The notes under the pieces: generated by a model | What the model was told of the DNA's origin: nothing | The model's database searches: none | What the model saw: the letters and a program-made list of their open reading frames with translations, nothing else | Part shown: positions 21,241-30,920 of the stretch, piece after piece | Numbering within the stretch: the stretch's first letter is position 1 | Layout: each line of letters starts with the position of its first letter | Program-made: the position numbers and the translations under genes | Source of the DNA: Candidatus Saccharimonadota bacterium | Lineage (GTDB): Archaea > Nanobdellota > Nanobdellia > Pacearchaeales > GW2011-AR1 | DNA: 32,000 nt | Assembly: GCA_049511795.1 (NCBI GenBank) | Contig: JBEKXS010000001.1 | Span: forward strand, 60,001 to 92,000 | Direction of reading: 5' to 3'

Positions 21241-22743
21241 ATGTGCAGATTAAAATTGTTTTTCATTGGGTTAATCTTCTCTTTATTCGGCATTTTGTTT
21301 ATTGTTCAATTAGTCAGTGCAACAGGCCCAAATATATTCCCAGGGATATTTTATGATAATGTAACAAATATAACAATAACAATCGGGCAGAACAACTCAA
21401 TAACTAATTTTTATATGAATACTTCAAATTCTTATTTCGATAATCAAAGTATTGTTTTTTCAACTAATTCTGGAAGTGCAACACAAAAATTTACAGTTTC
21501 TAGTATGCTTGGTTCTGTTGACGGGCAAGTAAGCATACAAAAAGGTATGCAAATACCTAAATTCCTAAGTATGAATCTTCATCCTCTTTCTCCATGGGAT
21601 GCTTATCTTCCAGAAGCTCTTTCAGGGTATAACTTAACAATAAGTCAAATAAACAATGATTGCATAACAAACAACTGTTCAATATTCAACCAATATCTAA
21701 TTAATGATAACATAATCATTCCATCAAAAACAAATCTTATATTCACAAAAAATAGCACAAATTACAGTTTCGCAAATGATTATGGTTATGATAATATAAG
21801 CAGTTATCAAAGTAGTATAAGCCAAATAATAACTGATAGCATAATGCAAATGAACATATCAAATATAATATCAGACATGCTGCCAATGATAACAAATAAC
21901 TTGACATATTACAATGTAGATGTTTCACAACTTCTTCTAAGTGCAATTAATTCTAATTATAGAGTGAGTTATATAAATCTCTCAAAAATCAACTTTAAAA
22001 ATGGTAGTTATACTATTCCTATTACAATAGCTAATGGAACTAATTCAATCATAAAAAATATTTTAGTAAAACTTCAGGACATTTCAAACACAACTCAAAT
22101 AGCAGATACAACTCCACCAGTCATAACAGTAATTTCTCCAAATAATAATGAATTATTTAATGTTTCAAATGTTACTCTTGACATAAATACAAGTGAAGAT
22201 GCAAGTGGGTGGTACAATTTGAATGGAACAAATGTTTCTATGACAAGAACTTCCCCTACTTCGTTTGAAAATGATTTATCTCTTTCAGATGGAAATTATG
22301 TTGTGATTTTCTATGCAGAAGATTTATCAGGGAATATTGGACAAACAACAACAAACTTTAACATAAACACAACAATAATTTCCAGTAATAATATAGGAAC
22401 TAATAATAATAGTAATAGTAGTAATAATGGAAATAATGGTGGATCTTCTGGAGGAGATAGTAATGGAGGAAGTTCTGGTGGTGGAGGCGGTGGTGGAGGA
22501 AGTAGTGGAGGTCACAGTTCTTATGTAAATACACCTCTTAGCAATTCTTTGCCTAATCAAAATGCAAACCCCCAAACAGGAACAATAACTGCACAAGCAA
22601 CAGCTCCATTAAACAGCAAGAACAGCTCATTTGATATAACTGGAGTTTTAGTTATTCTGGGGATATTCGCCGGACTTGGCATTTTTTTAGCTATAATAAC
22701 TTTTTCATTAAATCATAAAAAAATTAGAAATGAAAAATTATAG
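21241..22743 (+). CDS. secreted, C-terminally membrane-anchored surface protein, very rich in N-x-S/T sequons (paralog 1)
   Basis: Signal peptide ..LVSA/TG. Ig-like module TTPPVITVISPNNNELFNVSNVTL...DGNYVVIFYAEDLSGN. Asn/Ser/Gly low-complexity linker. C-terminal TM segment followed by HKKIRNEKL. Confidence 0.75.
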   Translation: MCRLKLFFIGLIFSLFGILFIVQLVSATGPNIFPGIFYDNVTNITITIGQNNSITNFYMNTSNSYFDNQSIVFSTNSGSATQKFTVSSMLGSVDGQVSIQKGMQIPKFLSMNLHPLSPWDAYLPEALSGYNLTISQINNDCITNNCSIFNQYLINDNIIIPSKTNLIFTKNSTNYSFANDYGYDNISSYQSSISQIITDSIMQMNISNIISDMLPMITNNLTYYNVDVSQLLLSAINSNYRVSYINLSKINFKNGSYTIPITIANGTNSIIKNILVKLQDISNTTQIADTTPPVITVISPNNNELFNVSNVTLDINTSEDASGWYNLNGTNVSMTRTSPTSFENDLSLSDGNYVVIFYAEDLSGNIGQTTTNFNINTTIISSNNIGTNNNSNSSNNGNNGGSSGGDSNGGSSGGGGGGGGSSGGHSSYVNTPLSNSLPNQNANPQTGTITAQATAPLNSKNSSFDITGVLVILGIFAGLGIFLAIITFSLNHKKIRNEKL

Positions 22744-23368
22744 GAATATAAGGTCAAAAGTAATTGGTCTGGGTATTGCTGCTATGGCTACTGCTTTCGC
22801 ATCTTGCAAAGATGTACCATTTATGCCAAGATGGGATACTGATTTTTACATGCCTTTGAGCACAAGAGCAATTTATCTCAAGGATTATTTTCAATTTGGA
22901 TTTATACCTTCAGGAATTTCAGCAAATGTAAGCTTTTCTCCTGAAAAGCAGGAACTTCCAGGAGTAGTCAGAGATGCTTTAAAAAATATAGAAACAAATT
23001 CTACAAGAGCAAGAACAGTTCTGACCCTAAACTTATCAAAAAGTACTCCAATAACAACAAGTGATACAATATTAATAACAAAAGATTCTGCAAGTCTTAC
23101 AAATCCTGGCTTGGAAGATATTGTCTTTCCAGTAAATCTAGGCAGTAATGATACTTTAGTAACAGATTCTATACAATTAACTATGCCTTCAATTAGGATG
23201 CTGCAAGATGCAGCATATAATGGGTCTCCATTATGGGTTCAAATGAGAGGTTATGTAAGCAATGATAGTAGTTATTCTATCCCAATAAATGCCTCAGACT
23301 CTATTACTGCAAAATTATCAATAACAGCTAGAATTTTTATATCAGAGAGAGGTGGTGGAAAACCATGA
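22730..23368 (+). CDS. putative lipoprotein (lipobox-like AFASC), function unknown
   Basis: MKNYRNIRSKVIGLGIAAMATAFAS-C: n-region, h-region, then Cys. The start overlaps the upstream stop by 14 nt. The stop overlaps the downstream start (ATGA at 23365-23368). Confidence 0.6.
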   Translation: MKNYRNIRSKVIGLGIAAMATAFASCKDVPFMPRWDTDFYMPLSTRAIYLKDYFQFGFIPSGISANVSFSPEKQELPGVVRDALKNIETNSTRARTVLTLNLSKSTPITTSDTILITKDSASLTNPGLEDIVFPVNLGSNDTLVTDSIQLTMPSIRMLQDAAYNGSPLWVQMRGYVSNDSSYSIPINASDSITAKLSITARIFISERGGGKP

Positions 23369-24708
23369 AGAAGATTTTACTGGGGTTAGTTAGTCTTCTA
23401 CTCCCAACAGTACTTAATGCACAACTCCCAAATCCATCGACTCGTGCTCTTGGAATGGATGGAGCATATACTTCAATAGCTCAAGGTTATGAATCCACAT
23501 TTTGGAACCCAGCAATGTTGGCAACAGAAGGTAGACCTAAATTTAGTATTAGTCTGCCTCATGGAGATTTAGAAATAGGTAGTAATATCTATAATTTTTC
23601 TGATTTTGGAAAATATGCAAATCATTACCTAAGTGACTCAGATAAGCAAACTTTGTTGAGTAAACTAGAACCAGGTCTACCACTTAGAATCCATACAGAA
23701 TTTGGTGTTGTACCTTTTGGATTATCAATCGGTCAATTTGCTATGGCAATTGGCACATATGGCGAAGGTAATGCGTCAATTAGTAATGATGCTATGCAAT
23801 TGTTATTGTATGGTAACTCTACTCTCAGTAATCCAAATCAATTATTTACTGCTAACGGATCAAGAGGAAATGGGTTAGTTGCAACAACCGCTGCAGTAAG
23901 TTTTGCATTACCATTCTCTTTACGAAACAATCGCTTATCTTTTGGTATTACAGGCAAGTATACAATTGGTCACTTCCTGGCTTCTGTAGAGGATTTTGGT
24001 TCGAATATAAACACAAATCCTTCATTTCATATAACAGAAGCAGCACAAGCTATTTATACAAATTATAGTAGTGATTGCAAAAGTATCAATCCATTTAGTA
24101 ATAGTGATTGTGGGGGTATGGCAGGAAGAGGCATAAGTGCAGATTTTGGAGTTACTTTGCAGATTCCAAATAGGGATATAACAATTTCAGCTGTTTTAGT
24201 CAATGGTCTTGGTAGTATGACTTGGAACCAAAATCGTTTTGTTTATAAGCGCACAAAATGCCAGATAGATTATATGTCATCAGATAATTTTATTAAGACA
24301 TGCACTGATTCAACAAAACTAACAACAGAAGAATCAATCAATGCCGATTCACAGGCACGTGTTTTTCGTGATTCTTTGTTGCATAACTCAAATTTCTCTA
24401 GATTAATCCGGACCGGATTTGCACTTAAAAAGAAGAATCTTACTATAGGTAGTACAATGCAGTTTAGATTGGGTAAAGGATTTGATGAACAACCGGAACA
24501 ACTTATTTCTGCTGGTTTGGAATACAATATTTTAGGTTTTCTACCAGTTAGAATTGGGTCTTCATGGGATTTTAATAAAACCAAAACTTTTTCAGCAGGT
24601 ACAGGACTTAAGATTTCAAGAGTAAATGTTGATGTTTCTATAACAAGTATCTCTGGACCATCTTATTCAGGACTACGATTAGGAGCTGGTACCAGTCTTA
24701 TATGGTAA
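23365..24708 (+). CDS. FadL/TodX/PorV-like outer-membrane beta-barrel protein (bacterial-type)
   Basis: Sec signal MKKILLGLVSLLLPTVLNA/Q. The N-terminal plug motif RALGMDGAYTSIAQGYESTFWNPAMLATEGRPKFSIS parallels GLGRAYSGEGAIADD..NPAL..RPTFSAG as I recall the E. coli FadL sequence. Repeated amphipathic strands follow (LSFGITGKYTIGH, ISADFGVTLQI, ISAGLEYNILGF, FSAGTGLKISRVNVDVSI). C-terminal beta-signal ..LRLGAGTSLIW. GGTGG-type RBS upstream. Confidence 0.6.
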   Translation: MKKILLGLVSLLLPTVLNAQLPNPSTRALGMDGAYTSIAQGYESTFWNPAMLATEGRPKFSISLPHGDLEIGSNIYNFSDFGKYANHYLSDSDKQTLLSKLEPGLPLRIHTEFGVVPFGLSIGQFAMAIGTYGEGNASISNDAMQLLLYGNSTLSNPNQLFTANGSRGNGLVATTAAVSFALPFSLRNNRLSFGITGKYTIGHFLASVEDFGSNINTNPSFHITEAAQAIYTNYSSDCKSINPFSNSDCGGMAGRGISADFGVTLQIPNRDITISAVLVNGLGSMTWNQNRFVYKRTKCQIDYMSSDNFIKTCTDSTKLTTEESINADSQARVFRDSLLHNSNFSRLIRTGFALKKKNLTIGSTMQFRLGKGFDEQPEQLISAGLEYNILGFLPVRIGSSWDFNKTKTFSAGTGLKISRVNVDVSITSISGPSYSGLRLGAGTSLIW

Positions 24709-24767
24709 AGAATTGCTGCGTCTCTAAGTAAAAAAGAAGTATTATTATGTACAACAAAAATTTATAA

Positions 24768-26378
24768 ATGTTTAAGAACTCTTTAAAAAGAATTAAAATG
24801 AACAACTCCAAATTATTTCTTGTTGGAGTGATGATATCTTTATTTGTTATTGTCGCTCTTGTCCCTTCTCTAAATGCTATTTCTTCTAGCGATATTAATC
24901 AGTTTCTTCAGGAAAGTGTCACAAATCTTACAGTAACAATACACCAAAATGATGCACAAGCAAATTTATACTTAAATACAAAAGGAACATCTTTTGACCG
25001 GCAGATAATAACTTCAAATAATATCAATATTACAGATTTGCTGAATAAATTAGGAGAAACTTCTCTATGCAATAAACTACCTTTTAATTGTACTAATTTT
25101 AGTCTAACTTTTAATATTTCCGATGTCCTTAATGGAGTTAATTGGTCCATAGGAATAACAAAAGGATCAAACATAACTCAATTAAGTAATTTATCAACTT
25201 CAGAAAATGTTCCTCTTGAAATGATTAGTTCTGGTTGGCCGGATATAAGGTCAATTAACTTCTCAAACATAACGACCATCACAGAGATTAACAATTATCT
25301 AGCGGCACATTCTCTTAATTATACTTTTGACAGAAATATAACTTTCACAAAACAGGGGACAGATTACATTTTATGGAATAGCGACGGGTATGGGGATCTT
25401 GGTTCTGCAACAAAAGATAATATAAGAAAGATAATAAGTGATGATGTTGAAAGCATGACAATCCAGCAAATTGTTGATAAAGCAATTCCTGTGTTAAACA
25501 ATTTGTCAAATGGAAGCGGAGATACTCTTAACAGTTTATTGAATGGAACTAACTTGAATTTCATAGTAACTGCAGTTGATCTTTCAAAGGTTAATTTAGA
25601 GGATGGAAATTATGTTGTTCCTATTACAATTAGTGATGGGACAAATGCTTACACAAAGAAAATCTACTTAGTTTTGCAGGGAATTAAAAACATAGGAACT
25701 GATAATTCAACTGGAGGTGTTTATGAATCAAGCAACCCAGAAATTCAGAATTATCTTAATAATATAATAGGATTCAATGATGGAGCAGTAACTGTTTCAT
25801 TATTTGATGATGGTTCAAATTATCCATCAATTTCAGGAACTGTTATTAAATATCTAGATTTTACATTCACTCAGGGGATAACTGGAAGTGCAATAATTAA
25901 CTTTAAAATTCCTAATTACAAAAACATTGATCCAACAAGAATAGTTTTATACCATTTTGATGGAACAAATTGGAATCAATTATCAACACATTATAACGGT
26001 TTAGATAGCAGCAAAAATTATTTATTTGATGCAACAACAACAAGCTTCTCACCATTTGCAATAGTTGAAACAGTTGCACCCATTGCAATAGCGCCAGCAA
26101 TAGGTAATAATGGCGGAGTTTATGGAGGAACATTTGTAACAGCACCTATAGCAACAACTCCGGCTGTAACTACACCTACAGCTAATACTCCAACAACACC
26201 AACAGCAACAGGATTCAACTTCTTCAGGGCACTTGGTGCAGTCGTGGGAGCTCCTAACAGCACAGGAACAGGCATTGTAGTCTTTATTGTGGTTATCTTT
26301 ATTGTTGGCGGAGTAATTACAGTATTTGTAATGAATAGGAAGCCATCAAAGAAGAAAGCAGAAAAAGACGAAGAATAA
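24768..26378 (+). CDS. secreted, C-terminally membrane-anchored surface protein (paralog 2); alternative start at 24798
   Basis: Shares blocks with 21241-22743 (VTNLTVTIHQN..NLYLNT versus VTNITITIGQN..NFYMNT; SKVNLEDGNYVVPITISDGTN versus SKINFKNGSYTIPITIANGTN). Pro/Thr/Ala linker. TM segment followed by NRKPSKKKAEKDEE. Own TATA (TTTATAAA) at the start. Confidence 0.75.
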   Translation: MFKNSLKRIKMNNSKLFLVGVMISLFVIVALVPSLNAISSSDINQFLQESVTNLTVTIHQNDAQANLYLNTKGTSFDRQIITSNNINITDLLNKLGETSLCNKLPFNCTNFSLTFNISDVLNGVNWSIGITKGSNITQLSNLSTSENVPLEMISSGWPDIRSINFSNITTITEINNYLAAHSLNYTFDRNITFTKQGTDYILWNSDGYGDLGSATKDNIRKIISDDVESMTIQQIVDKAIPVLNNLSNGSGDTLNSLLNGTNLNFIVTAVDLSKVNLEDGNYVVPITISDGTNAYTKKIYLVLQGIKNIGTDNSTGGVYESSNPEIQNYLNNIIGFNDGAVTVSLFDDGSNYPSISGTVIKYLDFTFTQGITGSAIINFKIPNYKNIDPTRIVLYHFDGTNWNQLSTHYNGLDSSKNYLFDATTTSFSPFAIVETVAPIAIAPAIGNNGGVYGGTFVTAPIATTPAVTTPTANTPTTPTATGFNFFRALGAVVGAPNSTGTGIVVFIVVIFIVGGVITVFVMNRKPSKKKAEKDEE

Positions 26379-30460: not shown

Positions 30461-30486
30461 TTGCATATACAATAGGTTGTATACAA
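30461..30486. promoter_or_regulatory. tandem palindromes abutting the nrdR start (candidate operator)
   Basis: TTGCATATACAA (30461-30472, imperfect palindrome) and TTGTATACAA (30477-30486, perfect palindrome), 4 nt apart. The second ends at the A of the ATG. Confidence 0.35.
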
Positions 30487-30920
30487 TGAACTGCCCATAT
30501 TGCGGTGGAGATTCCAAGGTTACGGACAAGAGAGGCTCTCCTGAGGGAACGAGAAGGCGTCGTGAGTGCTTGAGATGTAAAAAGAGGTTTACCACTTACG
30601 AAAGATTGAGCCACGGCGATTTTTTTATAATTAAGAAAGATGGGCGCAGGGAGAAATATTCAAGGGAAAAGCTTGAAACCGGAGTTGAAAGGGCGTTTGA
30701 AAAGCGGCCTGTTGCAAAGGAAAAGATAACAAAAATGATAAACGAGATTGAAGAGCAGCTTGGAAAACTTGGAAAAAAAGAGGTTAAGAGTGCGTTCATT
30801 GGCGAGTTAGTCATGAAAAAAATAAAAAAGCTTGACAATGTTGCCTACATCAGATTTGCTTCTGTTTACCGTGATTTTCAGGACATAAAAGATTTCAAAA
30901 AGGAGCTGAAGGAACTGTAA
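30486..30920 (+). CDS. nrdR: transcriptional repressor NrdR (zinc ribbon + ATP-cone)
   Basis: MNCPYCGG...RRRRECLRCKKRFTTYE zinc ribbon, then an ATP-cone (IKKDGRREKYSREKLETGVERA...). The track ORF starts at TTG 30477 and the ATG is at 30486. Confidence 0.9.
   Translation: MNCPYCGGDSKVTDKRGSPEGTRRRRECLRCKKRFTTYERLSHGDFFIIKKDGRREKYSREKLETGVERAFEKRPVAKEKITKMINEIEEQLGKLGKKEVKSAFIGELVMKKIKKLDNVAYIRFASVYRDFQDIKDFKKELKEL

What the first reader, a model, noticed from the sequence alone, without database searches (positions are those of the whole stretch)
22730..24708. Bacterial-type lipoprotein + FadL/TodX/PorV-like outer-membrane beta-barrel pair embedded in an archaeal surface-protein operon
Everything else in the window is archaeal (eS31, eS24, Spt4, Rpo7, class III pilin, Dph6). 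Yet 23365-24708 encodes a protein with the hallmarks of a Gram-negative outer-membrane protein. It has a Sec signal peptide (..VLNA/Q) and an N-terminal plug motif closely resembling FadL (RALGMDGAY...FWNPAML..RPKFSIS). About 14 alternating amphipathic strands follow, and the C-terminus has an aromatic beta-signal (..GAGTSLIW). It is translationally coupled (ATGA) to an upstream lipobox-type lipoprotein. The lipoprotein start in turn overlaps the stop of an archaeal-style glycoprotein gene by 14 nt. Archaea are not known to have BAM-assembled porins, and most have no outer membrane. A FadL-type hydrophobic-substrate channel in a lipid-auxotrophic DPANN-like cell has several possible explanations. 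It could be a lipid or hydrophobic-compound scavenging device at the host interface. It could be delivered into a bacterial partner's outer membrane. It could also indicate an unrecognised outer envelope. The beta-barrel gene shows a codon shift relative to neighbours: many CGN Arg codons (about 9 of 17 by my count, versus about 3 of 17 in hisS) and GGT-dominated Gly. This is consistent with acquisition from a bacterium.
Basis: partly seen in the sequence, partly recalled or inferred. Interest (0 to 1): 0.88.

Follow-up and report, generated by a model that had tools for sequence, protein, structure and literature searches.

The report
Bacterial outer-membrane barrel inside an archaeon
A small DPANN-type archaeon (Pacearchaeota) carries a two-gene set for a bacterial outer-membrane channel-like barrel and its lipid-anchored partner, taken from Gemmatimonadales-type bacteria and kept intact under selection, although archaea are not known to make or assemble such proteins.

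Summary
ORFs 22730-23368 (212 aa, lipobox protein) and 23365-24708 (447 aa) exist as described, overlap by ATGA, and the first overlaps the upstream archaeal glycoprotein gene by 14 nt. The 447-aa protein is a Pfam DUF5723 member (E 7e-18). It relates to PorV/PorQ below threshold. Its AlphaFold model matches TbuX, PorV, FadL, TodX and BamG-like barrels, and a 14-strand topology with an N-terminal WNPA plug can be derived.

It is not an assembly artefact. Six independent assemblies are 100% identical across both junctions. Two further archaeal species carry diverged orthologues (64% and 60%) at the same position.

Phylogeny places the three archaeal sequences (bootstrap 100) inside a Gemmatimonadales clade. 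There the same lipoprotein+barrel pair ends a kinase/phosphatase/protease operon. The archaeal copies are recoded to 36-43% GC (donors 65-71%). They evolve under purifying selection (dN/dS 0.13-0.27) and keep the lipid-facing hydrophobic belt, plug, signal peptide, lipobox and C-terminal aromatic signal.

So this is an old, single bacterium-to-archaeon transfer of a functional envelope module. Which bilayer it sits in, and how it folds without BAM, remain unknown. I favour a self-inserting surface complex used at a contact with a diderm bacterial partner.

The parts
21241..22743 (+). Upstream archaeal surface glycoprotein (500 aa; N-terminal signal/anchor, C-terminal TM helix). Its stop overlaps the partner gene start, so it is probably co-transcribed with the cassette.
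   Evidence: Hydrophobic segments at residues 1-30 and 462-492, and 25 N-X-S/T sequons against 15.5 expected. Collinear paralogue of 24768-26378 (local alignment score 374 vs shuffles 73+-12.6, z=24). The same gene precedes the cassette in two other archaeal species.
22730..23368 (+). Partner gene: 212-aa lipobox protein of bacterial origin, with a beta-sandwich body.
   Evidence: 40-51% identical to the gene immediately upstream of the barrel in Gemmatimonadales-type loci. No Pfam or NCBIfam family. AlphaFold pLDDT 78, all-beta, with only weak jelly-roll-like PDB matches. Small family: 46 clusters among 1.84 billion representatives. dN/dS 0.21-0.27.
22730..22807 (+). Partner signal peptide and lipobox-like F-A-S-C (Cys26).
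   Evidence: Sequence read. Cys26 is invariant in all 17 aligned partners. Position -3 is Phe rather than the canonical L/V/I, as in the bacterial donors.
22805..22855 (+). Conserved tail right after the lipidated Cys (C-K-D-V-P-F-x-P-R-W-D-x-D-x-Y-x-P). It is the best-conserved part of the partner and a candidate barrel-binding tail.
   Evidence: C26, P30, P33, W35, D36, D38 and P42 are invariant. The same motif starts a 374-aa lipoprotein upstream of distant Gemmatimonadota barrels (hhalign 89%, E 2.4e-6). The binding role is inferred by analogy with BamH-BamG (PMC12611786).
22730..22743 (+). 14-nt overlap between the stop of the archaeal glycoprotein gene and the start of the partner gene.
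   Evidence: Identical in six independent assemblies.
23365..23368 (+). ATGA start/stop overlap between the partner and barrel genes.
   Evidence: The same 4-nt overlap is called in both other archaeal species: L012 and L096.
23365..24708 (+). Barrel gene: 447-aa DUF5723-family outer-membrane-type beta-barrel.
   Evidence: Pfam PF18990, E 7e-18. PorV_fam 4.8e-11, below cutoff. AlphaFold pLDDT 77, pTM 0.75. Foldseek matches to TbuX, PorV, FadL, TodX and BamG-like chains. dN/dS 0.13-0.15.
23365..23421 (+). Barrel Sec-type signal peptide (MKKILLGLVSLLLPTVLNA|Q).
   Evidence: Sequence. Conserved with the bacterial homologues. The cleavage site is inferred; no predictor was run.
23422..23541 (+). 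N-terminal plug/hatch region with the R-A-L-G..A-Y..W-N-P-A motif.
   Evidence: Most conserved region across the archaeal/bacterial divide (78% to the bacterial consensus). W47-N48-P49 are invariant. It aligns with the PorV N-terminus and with the FadL hatch including its NPA motif (48 columns, 33% identity, E 0.013). Low pLDDT in the model.
23542..24705 (+). 14 amphipathic transmembrane strands, with four long loops (L1 residues 74-106, L2 140-166, L3 211-253, L4 288-345) on one face and 2-4-residue turns on the other.
   Evidence: DSSP strands combined with the hydrophobic phase of each strand. Topology table. Lipid-facing hydrophobicity is 1.48 in archaea vs 1.58 in bacteria.
24238..24321 (+). 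Polar hairpin in loop L4 carrying an archaea-only Cys pair (C299, C313).
   Evidence: Both Cys are invariant in the three archaeal sequences. Bacteria have mostly R/Q and mostly T/V at these columns. Disulfide formation is inferred.
24676..24705 (+). C-terminal strand ending in ..L-I-W (aromatic beta-signal-like terminus).
   Evidence: Family terminus G-x-G-[LI]-[IM]-[WF].
24768..26378 (+). Downstream archaeal surface glycoprotein (536 aa; PGF-pre-PGF domain, C-terminal TM helix).
   Evidence: TIGR04213, E 1.3e-11. Paralogue of 21241-22743. Follows the cassette in all three archaeal species.

Best explanation
SHOWN. The two genes are a bona fide bacterial outer-membrane module: a lipoprotein plus a 14-strand plugged beta-barrel of the DUF5723 / PorV-FadL superfamily.
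- The module moved once, as a pair, from a Gemmatimonadales-type diderm bacterium into the ancestor of a small Pacearchaeota (DPANN) clade.
- It landed between two tandem paralogous archaeal surface-glycoprotein genes.
- It has since been recoded to archaeal base composition.
- It has been kept under purifying selection in at least three species.
- All biogenesis and structural signals are intact: both signal peptides, the lipobox Cys, the plug motif, the lipid-facing hydrophobic belt and the C-terminal aromatic end.

INFERRED (about 0.3 for this specific chain).
1. Both proteins are exported by the archaeal Sec system and expressed together with the flanking glycoproteins.
2. The partner is lipid-anchored by the archaeal lipoprotein pathway (AliA-type).
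3. The barrel folds into a lipid bilayer at the cell surface without BAM, by slow self-insertion, and binds the conserved tail that follows the partner's lipidated Cys.
4. The complex acts as a plugged PorV/FadL-like docking or hydrophobic-ligand conduit at the contact zone with a diderm bacterial partner, plausibly of the donor lineage. It does not act as an open porin.
For: Reality of the locus:
- The exact protein occurs on 18 contigs from JGI, ENA and Logan assemblies, 8 of them 0.2-1 Mb.
- Six loci are 100% identical to the window across both junctions.

Family and fold:
- Pfam DUF5723, E 7e-18.
- All 33 homologues hit PorV_fam, best E 1.7e-12, below cutoff.
- A profile search of PDB sequences finds only PorV.
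- Foldseek: TbuX 6.5e-7, PorV 7e-7, FadL, TodX and Bacteroidota BAM-complex chains (BamG-like), TM 0.40-0.48.
- A 14-strand topology can be derived.

Transfer:
- The genome scan finds one archaeal species (64% identity) and otherwise Gemmatimonadales at 42-52%.
- In the NJ tree the archaeal trio (bootstrap 100) is nested in a 35-taxon clade (bootstrap 100) whose order-level-labelled members are all Gemmatimonadales (one carries only a phylum-level label); the sister subclade has bootstrap 75.
- Bacterial loci carry the same partner+barrel pair at the end of a Zn-ribbon-FHA / Ser-Thr kinase / PP2C / FHA-trypsin operon, next to peptidoglycan-recycling genes.
- The partner is also homologous, so the pair moved together.

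Retention:
- Syntenic orthologues occur in two more archaeal species.
- GC is 0.36-0.43 in archaea against 0.65-0.71 in bacteria.
- dN/dS is 0.13-0.15 for the barrel and 0.21-0.27 for the partner. Barrel identity (64%) lies between housekeeping neighbours (80-92%) and the flanking glycoproteins (43-49%).
- Lipid-facing hydrophobicity is kept, and inward-facing residues are the most conserved class. The plug is 78% identical to the bacterial consensus.

Plausibility of the inferred steps:
- Lipoproteins and AliA are reported in DPANN (PMC12462473).
- Large barrels can self-insert into liposomes (PMC13018214).
- A FadL-family barrel holding the lipidated tail of a lipoprotein is known from BamG-BamH in the FCB superphylum (PMC12611786).
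- Pacearchaeota have been proposed as episymbionts of bacteria (PMC8204110).
Against: - No BAM/Omp85 machinery is known in archaea, and I could not inspect the whole genome for it.
- A barrel exported through Sec into a single-membrane cell would have to push four long polar loops (27-58 residues) across the cytoplasmic membrane. The archaea-specific Cys pair in loop L4 fits an oxidising, extracytoplasmic location for those loops better than the cytoplasm. That favours a second bilayer (rival explanations 1 and 2).
- The short turns on the periplasmic face are the most diverged part relative to bacteria (34% vs 69% within bacteria), so the original periplasmic contacts may be lost.
- Structural matches are modest (TM <0.5) and the plug is modelled with low confidence.
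- There are no expression, localisation or host data.
- Only three archaeal species carry the module.
- The immediate bacterial sister subclade is on short unlabelled contigs. Its Gemmatimonadales assignment rests on operon structure, 70% GC and tree position.
Confidence: 0.6

Rival explanations
1. Host-membrane insertion. The barrel is made by the archaeon but ends up in the outer membrane of a diderm bacterial host (the donor lineage, Gemmatimonadales), either through the host's BAM or by insertion from outside. The partner stays lipid-anchored on the archaeal membrane, so the pair forms a cross-cell tether or conduit.
For: The donor is one specific diderm order, and gene transfer between DPANN symbionts and their hosts is documented (PMC6349945). 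Pacearchaeota have been proposed to attach to bacteria (PMC8204110). The C-terminal aromatic beta-signal and plug are retained. The loop-L4 Cys pair gained in archaea fits an extracytoplasmic location. The module sits in an operon with surface glycoproteins that could act as adhesins. Only a narrow archaeal subclade has it, as expected for a host-specific accessory.
Against: No route is known by which an archaeal Sec substrate could reach a bacterial periplasm. Insertion through an LPS leaflet from outside is unfavourable. The partner's most conserved segment lies directly next to its lipid anchor, which suggests that both proteins share one membrane. No co-occurrence or physical-association data were obtained.
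Confidence: 0.2
2. Own outer envelope. This Pacearchaeota subclade has a second, outer lipid bilayer (or sheds vesicles), and the barrel-lipoprotein pair resides there as in a diderm bacterium.
For: Topology is simplest with a second bilayer: termini and short turns face inward and long disulfide-bearing loops face outward. The hydrophobic belt is fully retained. Double membranes have been reported for other small archaea, ARMAN and Altiarchaeum (PMC4243693, PMC8871954).
Against: Only three species carry the module, while the rest of the Pacearchaeota lack it, so it cannot be a core component of a lineage-wide outer membrane. No other outer-membrane biogenesis gene is seen in the 32-kb window or in the related loci. 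No ultrastructural data exist.
Confidence: 0.1
3. Tolerated passenger. The genes are transcribed with the surface operon, but the products have no membrane function (misfolded, degraded, or reused as a soluble binding protein).
For: There is no known assembly pathway in archaea. The barrel evolves faster than its housekeeping neighbours (64% vs 80-92% identity). The periplasmic-face turns are strongly diverged.
Against: ORFs are intact in three species separated by dS of about 1 or more, with dN/dS 0.13-0.27. The lipid-facing hydrophobic pattern, plug motif, signal peptide, lipobox Cys and C-terminal aromatic residue are all retained. A soluble role would select against a hydrophobic belt.
Confidence: 0.07
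4. Artefact. A bacterial fragment was mis-assembled or mis-binned into an archaeal contig.
For: The protein family is otherwise bacterial.
Against: Six assemblies from different pipelines and samples are 100% identical across both junctions. The partner's start overlaps the archaeal gene's stop. GC is 0.356 in a 0.349 window, against 0.65-0.71 in bacterial homologues. Diverged orthologues sit at the same position in two other archaeal species.
Confidence: 0.01

Closest known systems
Pfam DUF5723 (PF18990), uncharacterised bacterial outer-membrane beta-barrels
   Same: Full-length match above the gathering threshold (65.9 vs 26.8 bits, profile positions 6-371 of 376). NCBI already labels the protein DUF5723. 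Other members are reported in P. gingivalis outer-membrane vesicles (PMC12937337) and modelled as a barrel in Brachyspira (bioRxiv 10.1101/2025.01.03.631275).
   Different: It is encoded in an archaeal chromosome, recoded to 36% GC, and carries an archaea-specific Cys pair in loop L4. No DUF5723 protein has a known function, and I found no paper that mentions one in archaea.
PorV/PorQ family (type IX secretion outer-membrane shuttle; NF033709; PDB 6h3i_F)
   Same: All 33 family members hit the model (best E 1.7e-12). The only PDB sequence found by the family profile is PorV, through the N-terminal R-A-x-G-L..W-N-P-A motif. Foldseek E 7e-7. It has 14 strands and pairs with lipoproteins or cargo.
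   Different: The score (42.8) is far below the family cutoff (90), and the equivalog models fail. No type IX secretion genes lie nearby in either the archaeal or the donor loci.
FadL/TodX/TbuX hydrophobic-compound channels (Toluene_X, PF03349)
   Same: Best structural matches (TbuX E 6.5e-7, TM 0.40/0.45; FadL; TodX). 14 strands. The N-terminal hatch aligns, including FadL's NPA motif.
   Different: No Pfam Toluene_X hit even at E<=1. hhalign covers only 48 N-terminal columns at E 0.013. The lateral opening and substrate site could not be examined.
BamG-BamH of the Bacteroidota/FCB-superphylum BAM complex (PMC12611786; PDB 9n2d, 9hiv, 9hjm)
   Same: [quoted passage not shown] The FCB-wide phyletic distribution is reported (six of seven further phyla; PMC12611786); I did not check whether this covers the donor phylum. 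BAM-complex chains reach the highest TM-scores (0.43/0.48). The partner's most conserved segment is the tail next to its lipidated Cys.
   Different: BamH is a large two-domain surface lipoprotein, whereas the partner here is a 200-aa single beta-sandwich with no detectable similarity. In the donors the pair belongs to a kinase/phosphatase/protease operon, not to a BAM locus.
Bacterial genes laterally acquired by DPANN archaea (PMC8204110, PMC6349945)
   Same: A bacterium-to-DPANN transfer that is retained and recoded. It concerns Pacearchaeota, which were already suspected of associating with bacteria because they encode murein-degrading surface proteins.
   Different: Those reports list cytoplasmic pathways, chaperones and lytic transglycosylases. 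A text search of PMC8204110 finds no mention of 'outer membrane', 'porin', 'lipoprotein' or 'beta-barrel'. The only related hint I found is a possible distant PopA relative in Altiarchaeales (PMC12228718).

Membership tests
Pfam DUF5723 (PF18990) | Whole-protein score above the curated gathering threshold, with near full-length profile coverage | tested here: met
   65.9 bits vs 26.8; residues 55-422 on profile positions 6-371 of 376. Precomputed PF18990 hits for most homologues.
PorV/PorQ family (NCBIfam NF033709) | Score at or above the curated cutoff (90 bits) | tested here: not met
   42.8 bits, E 4.8e-11. All 33 relatives hit, but below cutoff. This is a superfamily-level relation only.
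T9SS PorV proper (NF033710) / PorV2 (NF052325) | Equivalog score cutoffs (250 / 325 bits) and a type IX secretion gene context | tested here: not met
   13.8 and 24.3 bits. No T9SS genes in the archaeal or donor loci.
FadL/Toluene_X (PF03349) | Sequence-profile match to the family | tested here: not met
   No hit at E<=1 in Pfam. phmmer and profile searches of PDB sequences do not retrieve FadL.
FadL/Toluene_X (PF03349) | 14-stranded barrel | tested here: met
   Of 17 DSSP strands, 3 are polar and extramembrane. The other 14 give alternating long loops and 2-4-residue turns. This was derived without model coordinates, so barrel closure was not checked.
FadL/Toluene_X (PF03349) | N-terminal hatch with NPA motif plugging the lumen | tested here: inconclusive
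   The motif aligns with FadL residues 3-53 (33% identity, E 0.013; FadL sequence verified against 1t16). W-N-P is invariant. The region has pLDDT <50, so plugging is not seen in the model.
FadL/Toluene_X (PF03349) | Lateral opening in the barrel wall for hydrophobic substrates | not testable with these tools
   Model coordinates cannot be inspected. Foldseek TM is only 0.37-0.45.
Bacterial BAM-dependent outer-membrane proteins (general) | Sec signal peptide, amphipathic strands with a lipid-facing hydrophobic belt, C-terminal aromatic beta-signal | tested here: met
   Sequence. Lipid-facing mean hydropathy is 1.48 (archaea) vs 1.58 (bacteria), and lumen-facing is -0.56 vs -0.42.
Bacterial BAM-dependent outer-membrane proteins (general) | BamA/Omp85 and an outer membrane in the same organism | not testable with these tools
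   Only 32 kb plus about 20-kb flanks of related loci were readable, and none shows such genes. Whole MAGs could not be scanned.
Lipobox lipoproteins | [L/V/I]-[A/S/T/V/I]-[G/A/S]-C after a positively charged, hydrophobic signal peptide (motif as given in PMC12462473) | tested here: inconclusive
   MKNYRNIRSKVIGLGIAAMATAFAS-C. Positions -1 (S) and -2 (A) fit, but -3 is F, not L/V/I. The Cys is invariant and most donor partners also have F (V in three) at -3. No predictor was run, and lipidation enzymes (AliA/AliB or Lgt/Lsp) were not searched in the genome.
BamG-BamH pair | Barrel homologous to BamG plus a large two-domain surface lipoprotein BamH, associated with BamA | tested here: not met
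   The match is structural only (TM 0.43/0.48). The partner is a 212-aa single domain with no family hit. The donor operon is not a BAM locus.

The most novel reading that the evidence does not exclude
A Pacearchaeota subclade uses a captured bacterial outer-membrane barrel-lipoprotein pair in a second lipid bilayer. That bilayer is either the outer membrane of a Gemmatimonadales host, to which the archaeon attaches, or an outer membrane or vesicle of its own. The first case would be the first molecular evidence for an archaeon-on-bacterium episymbiosis and would name the host lineage. The second would be a beta-barrel membrane protein assembled in an archaeon without BAM.
Probability: 0.25. 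Interest if true: 0.92.

Novelty: new variant of a known kind. Interest (0 to 1): 0.74.

Why it matters
Transmembrane beta-barrels of the outer-membrane type are regarded as a signature of diderm bacteria and their organelle descendants. I found no report of a functional one in archaea.

Here one has been kept by selection, together with its lipoprotein partner, in a DPANN lineage whose hosts and envelope are unknown. This gives three concrete handles:
- a candidate partner lineage (Gemmatimonadales) to test by co-occurrence, FISH or Hi-C;
- a natural experiment on BAM-independent barrel assembly, possibly in an isoprenoid-lipid membrane;
- a specific surface marker (barrel, partner and two flanking glycoproteins) for locating and imaging these cells.

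It also draws attention to an unstudied Gemmatimonadota operon in which this pair is coupled to a Ser/Thr kinase, a PP2C phosphatase and an FHA-trypsin protease.

Tried and rejected
- **Chimeric assembly or contamination:** rejected.
- **Archaea-to-bacteria direction of transfer:** rejected, because the archaeal clade is nested in the tree and the family is broadly present in Gemmatimonadota.
- **Codon-usage shift as evidence of transfer:** the counts are right but not discriminating.
- **Mobile-element vector:** no tRNA, repeat scars or integrase at the cassette, and no homologues in plasmid or phage collections.
- **N-glycosylation sequon gain as a sign of surface adaptation:** not consistent. 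The window's partner has 7 sequons against 2.3 expected, but the other two archaeal partners and all barrels are at expectation.
- **Functional assignment of the partner:** none obtained. No Pfam or NCBIfam hit, only weak jelly-roll fold matches, and a very small family.
- **Two scans of metagenome contigs for more archaeal copies:** nothing found.
- **Profile search of the large protein database:** no further archaeal members.
- **Organism names for the closest bacterial clusters:** none on record.
- **Single-sequence search of PDB sequences:** only noise (frataxin and a 4v96 chain named ORF46).
- **First tree script:** timed out and was replaced.
- **First structure request for the partner:** It was rerun with alignment A4.

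Full report
**1. The observation**

The window contains the two ORFs exactly as described: 22730-23368 (212 aa) and 23365-24708 (447 aa), both on the + strand.
- The partner's ATG lies 14 nt inside the end of the upstream 500-aa gene (…AGAAATGAAAAATTATAG).
- The two cassette genes overlap by ATGA.
- A 59-nt spacer separates the barrel gene from the next gene.
- The surrounding genes are archaeal: ribosomal proteins S24e and S27a-type, Spt4, Rpo7, diphthamide synthase and an Lhr-type helicase.
- NCBI holds the identical protein as 'DUF5723 family protein [Candidatus Pacearchaeota archaeon]'.

**2. What the proteins are**

*The 447-aa protein, by sequence.*
- It matches Pfam DUF5723 over its whole length (E 7e-18; 65.9 bits against a cutoff of 26.8).
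- It matches the NCBIfam PorV/PorQ model at E 4.8e-11, but below that model's cutoff. All 33 aligned relatives do the same.
- It gives no Toluene_X/FadL hit in Pfam even at E<=1.
- A profile of the family finds only PorV among all PDB sequences, through the N-terminal R-A-x-G-L…W-N-P-A segment.
- The same segment aligns with the hatch of E. coli FadL, including its NPA motif, but weakly: 48 columns, E 0.013. I confirmed that the FadL sequence I used is identical to 1t16.

*The 447-aa protein, by structure.*
- An AlphaFold2 model built on 33 sequences has pLDDT 77 and pTM 0.75. It is almost all beta after residue 60.
- Its best PDB matches are TbuX, PorV, FadL, TodX and the FadL-like accessory barrels of Bacteroidota BAM complexes. 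E-values are 1e-6 to 1e-5 and TM-scores 0.37-0.48.
- DSSP lists 17 strands. The alternating-hydropathy test shows that three of them (222-232, 292-303, 309-319) are polar.
- The other 14 give a self-consistent topology: four long loops on one face (74-106, 140-166, 211-253, 288-345) and turns of 2-4 residues on the other.

*The 212-aa protein.*
- It has a basic/hydrophobic leader ending in F-A-S-C.
- It has no family assignment.
- Its body is a confident all-beta fold (pLDDT 78) that resembles nothing informative in the PDB.

**3. It is not an artefact**

The exact barrel protein is recorded on 18 contigs from JGI, ENA and Logan assemblies, eight of them 0.2-1 Mb long. Six fetched loci from different samples are 100% identical (one of them has a single mismatch in 5,138 bases) to the window across both junctions. 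The cassette's GC (0.34-0.36) equals the window's (0.35).

**4. Where it came from**

*The barrel family.* A search of 5.8 billion proteins gave 35 relatives, and a family-profile search added no new archaeal ones.

*Archaeal copies.* Two relatives (64% and 60% identical) lie in loci with the same order: archaeal glycoprotein, ~225-aa partner, barrel, second glycoprotein. The larger of those loci (64%) also has the same flanking Rpo7, PIN, M48 peptidase, metallophosphatase and Lhr genes; the other (60%) is a 5-kb contig holding only the four-gene core. GTDB's record calls the 64% one 'Nanoarchaeota archaeon'.

*Bacterial copies.* The other relatives whose loci I read sit in 65-73% GC DNA with plainly bacterial neighbours: Amidase_3, AnmK, a MurQ-like SIS protein, GH3, LepA, Mfd and heptosyltransferase.

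*Donor lineage.* The scan of one genome per GTDB species returned, after the archaeon, only Gemmatimonadales at 42-52% identity. A 22-29% tier came from Gemmatimonadaceae, Longimicrobiales and Eisenbacteria.

*Tree.* In a neighbour-joining tree with 100 bootstraps the three archaeal sequences form a clade (100). That clade is nested inside a 35-taxon clade (100) whose order-level-labelled members are all Gemmatimonadales (one carries only a phylum-level label); its immediate sister group has support 75.

*Caveat.* That sister group is on short, unnamed contigs. One of them shows the donor-type operon at 70% GC.

*The partner moved too.* It is 40-51% identical to the gene immediately upstream of the bacterial barrels, with an invariant lipobox Cys followed by K-D-V-P-F-x-P-R-W-D. 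More distant Gemmatimonadota have a 374-aa lipoprotein with the same tail in that position.

*Donor operon.* In the closely related (39-58% identical) donor loci that were read, the pair is the distal end of a conserved operon encoding a Zn-ribbon-FHA protein, a Ser/Thr kinase, a PP2C phosphatase and an FHA-trypsin protease. Only the last two genes reached the archaeon.

*No vector.* No vector or insertion scar is visible.

**5. It is maintained, not decaying**

Between the window and the 64% species:

| Gene class | aa identity |
|---|---|
| Neighbouring housekeeping proteins | 80-92% |
| Barrel | 64% |
| Partner | 53% |
| Two flanking glycoproteins | 43-49% |

- Nei-Gojobori dN/dS is 0.13 for the barrel and 0.27 for the partner. 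Synonymous sites are near saturation in this comparison.
- Between the two closer archaeal species the values are 0.15 and 0.21, at dS of about 0.5-1.0.
- The barrel gene of one species is still at 42% GC in a 36% GC locus. This is a residual trace of its high-GC origin.
- Positions defined as lipid-facing on the bacterial sequences are just as hydrophobic in the archaeal ones (1.48 vs 1.58). Inward-facing positions are the most conserved strand class.
- The plug region is the most conserved region overall, at 78% identity to the bacterial consensus.
- The signal peptide, the lipobox Cys and the C-terminal L-I-W are kept.

Changes specific to the archaeal clade:
- more polar loops;
- strongly diverged short turns on the periplasmic face (34% identity to the bacterial consensus, against 69% among bacteria);
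- a new Cys pair (C299/C313) placed symmetrically in a polar hairpin of loop L4, in addition to the C238/C249 pair shared with bacteria.

**6. How it most likely works**

*Shown.* This is a functional, selected, membrane-type barrel with its cognate lipoprotein. It is embedded between, and probably co-transcribed with, two paralogous surface glycoproteins anchored by C-terminal helices (z=24 for their similarity).

*Inferred.*
- Both proteins are exported by Sec.
- The partner is lipidated by the archaeal pathway. Lipoproteins and AliA are reported in DPANN (PMC12462473).
- The barrel folds without BAM. Unassisted insertion of large barrels into liposomes has been demonstrated (PMC13018214).
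- The partner's conserved tail next to its lipid anchor binds the barrel, as BamH's tail binds the FadL-family barrel BamG (PMC12611786).

*Role.* Because the lumen is plugged and the family is PorV/FadL-like, I expect a docking or hydrophobic-ligand role rather than an open pore.

*Which bilayer.* This is unresolved.
- The simplest reading is the cell's own membrane.
- However, the topology argues for a second bilayer. The termini and the partner-binding face lie on one side. Four long loops carrying a newly gained probable disulfide lie on the other.
- That second bilayer could be the outer membrane of a diderm partner or an outer membrane of the archaeon itself. Double membranes have been reported for ARMAN and Altiarchaeum (PMC4243693, PMC8871954).
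- The donor lineage is one diderm order, and Pacearchaeota have been proposed as episymbionts of bacteria (PMC8204110). Together these make a Gemmatimonadales partner a specific, testable idea.

**7. Comparison with what is known, and novelty**

- The protein is a member of DUF5723. It is related to, but not a member of, PorV/PorQ and FadL/TodX (see the membership table).
- Bacterial genes in DPANN genomes are well known (PMC8204110, PMC6349945). That study's text does not mention outer-membrane proteins, porins or lipoproteins.
- Full-text searches found no paper on DUF5723 in archaea. They found only a passing remark on a possible distant PopA relative in Altiarchaeales.
- I therefore rate it a new variant of a known kind: a known barrel family in a cellular context where it has not been described and where its assembly is unexplained.

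**8. Limits**

- I had no access to whole genomes, reads, expression data or model coordinates.
- The tree is distance-based.
- dS is high.
- Only three archaeal species are available.
- Signal peptide and lipobox calls are by eye, not by a predictor.

Noticed in passing
window 24238-24321 (barrel residues 292-319, loop L4): Cys299 and Cys313 are invariant in the three archaeal barrels, while bacteria have R/Q and T/V at these positions. They sit symmetrically across a polar hairpin, which suggests a lineage-specific disulfide gained after the transfer.
   Followed up: partly
window 21241-22743 and 24768-26378: The two genes flanking the cassette are collinear paralogues (local alignment z=24 against shuffles) that BLASTP with composition adjustment missed. 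Both are sequon-rich (25 vs 15.5 and 18 vs 11.3 expected) and have a C-terminal TM anchor. They evolve faster than anything else in the locus (43-49% identity between species).
   Followed up: partly
L007 2224-9347; also L014, L011, L097: In Gemmatimonadales-type bacteria the lipoprotein+barrel pair is the end of a conserved six-gene operon: double-Zn-ribbon-FHA protein, Ser/Thr kinase, PP2C phosphatase, FHA-trypsin protease, lipoprotein, DUF5723 barrel. In the longer loci (L007, L014, L011) peptidoglycan-recycling genes (AnmK, MurQ-like, GH3) lie downstream. This looks like an unstudied envelope-signalling system.
   Followed up: partly
L012 10001-11344 vs the whole locus: In the 64%-identical archaeal species the barrel gene is 42% GC in a 35.8% GC locus (43% in the third species). 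In the window it is fully equilibrated (35.6% vs 34.9%). This is residual high-GC signal of the donor.
   Followed up: yes
barrel residues 123-124, 186-189, 268-271, 357-358, 390-392, 418-419 (short turns): The short turns on the presumed periplasmic face are well conserved among bacteria (69%) but are the most diverged class between archaea and bacteria (34%). This suggests that the original periplasmic contacts were lost or replaced. The class has only 35 columns.
   Followed up: partly
window 24757-24798: A TTTATAAA box lies 34-41 nt upstream of a second in-frame ATG (24798, MNNSKLFLVGV…). That ATG gives a more typical signal peptide than the ORF's first ATG at 24768. The downstream glycoprotein may therefore have its own promoter and a start 10 codons later.
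   Followed up: no
window 22730-23368: The window's partner protein has 7 N-X-S/T sequons against 2.3+-1.4 expected from its composition. The orthologues in the two other archaeal species have 2, which is at expectation.
   Followed up: partly
window 30477-30920: An NrdR-type repressor (Zn-ribbon plus ATP-cone) lies next to the ribonucleotide reductase gene in this archaeal genome, and also in the related species (L012). From my own knowledge NrdR is typically a bacterial regulator. This may be another bacterial acquisition.
   Followed up: no
partner family (P0036, P0061-P0105): The partner family is very small: 46 clusters at 50% identity with E<=0.001 among 1.84 billion representatives, nearly all about 200 aa. 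It appears restricted to the lineages that carry this barrel subfamily.
   Followed up: partly
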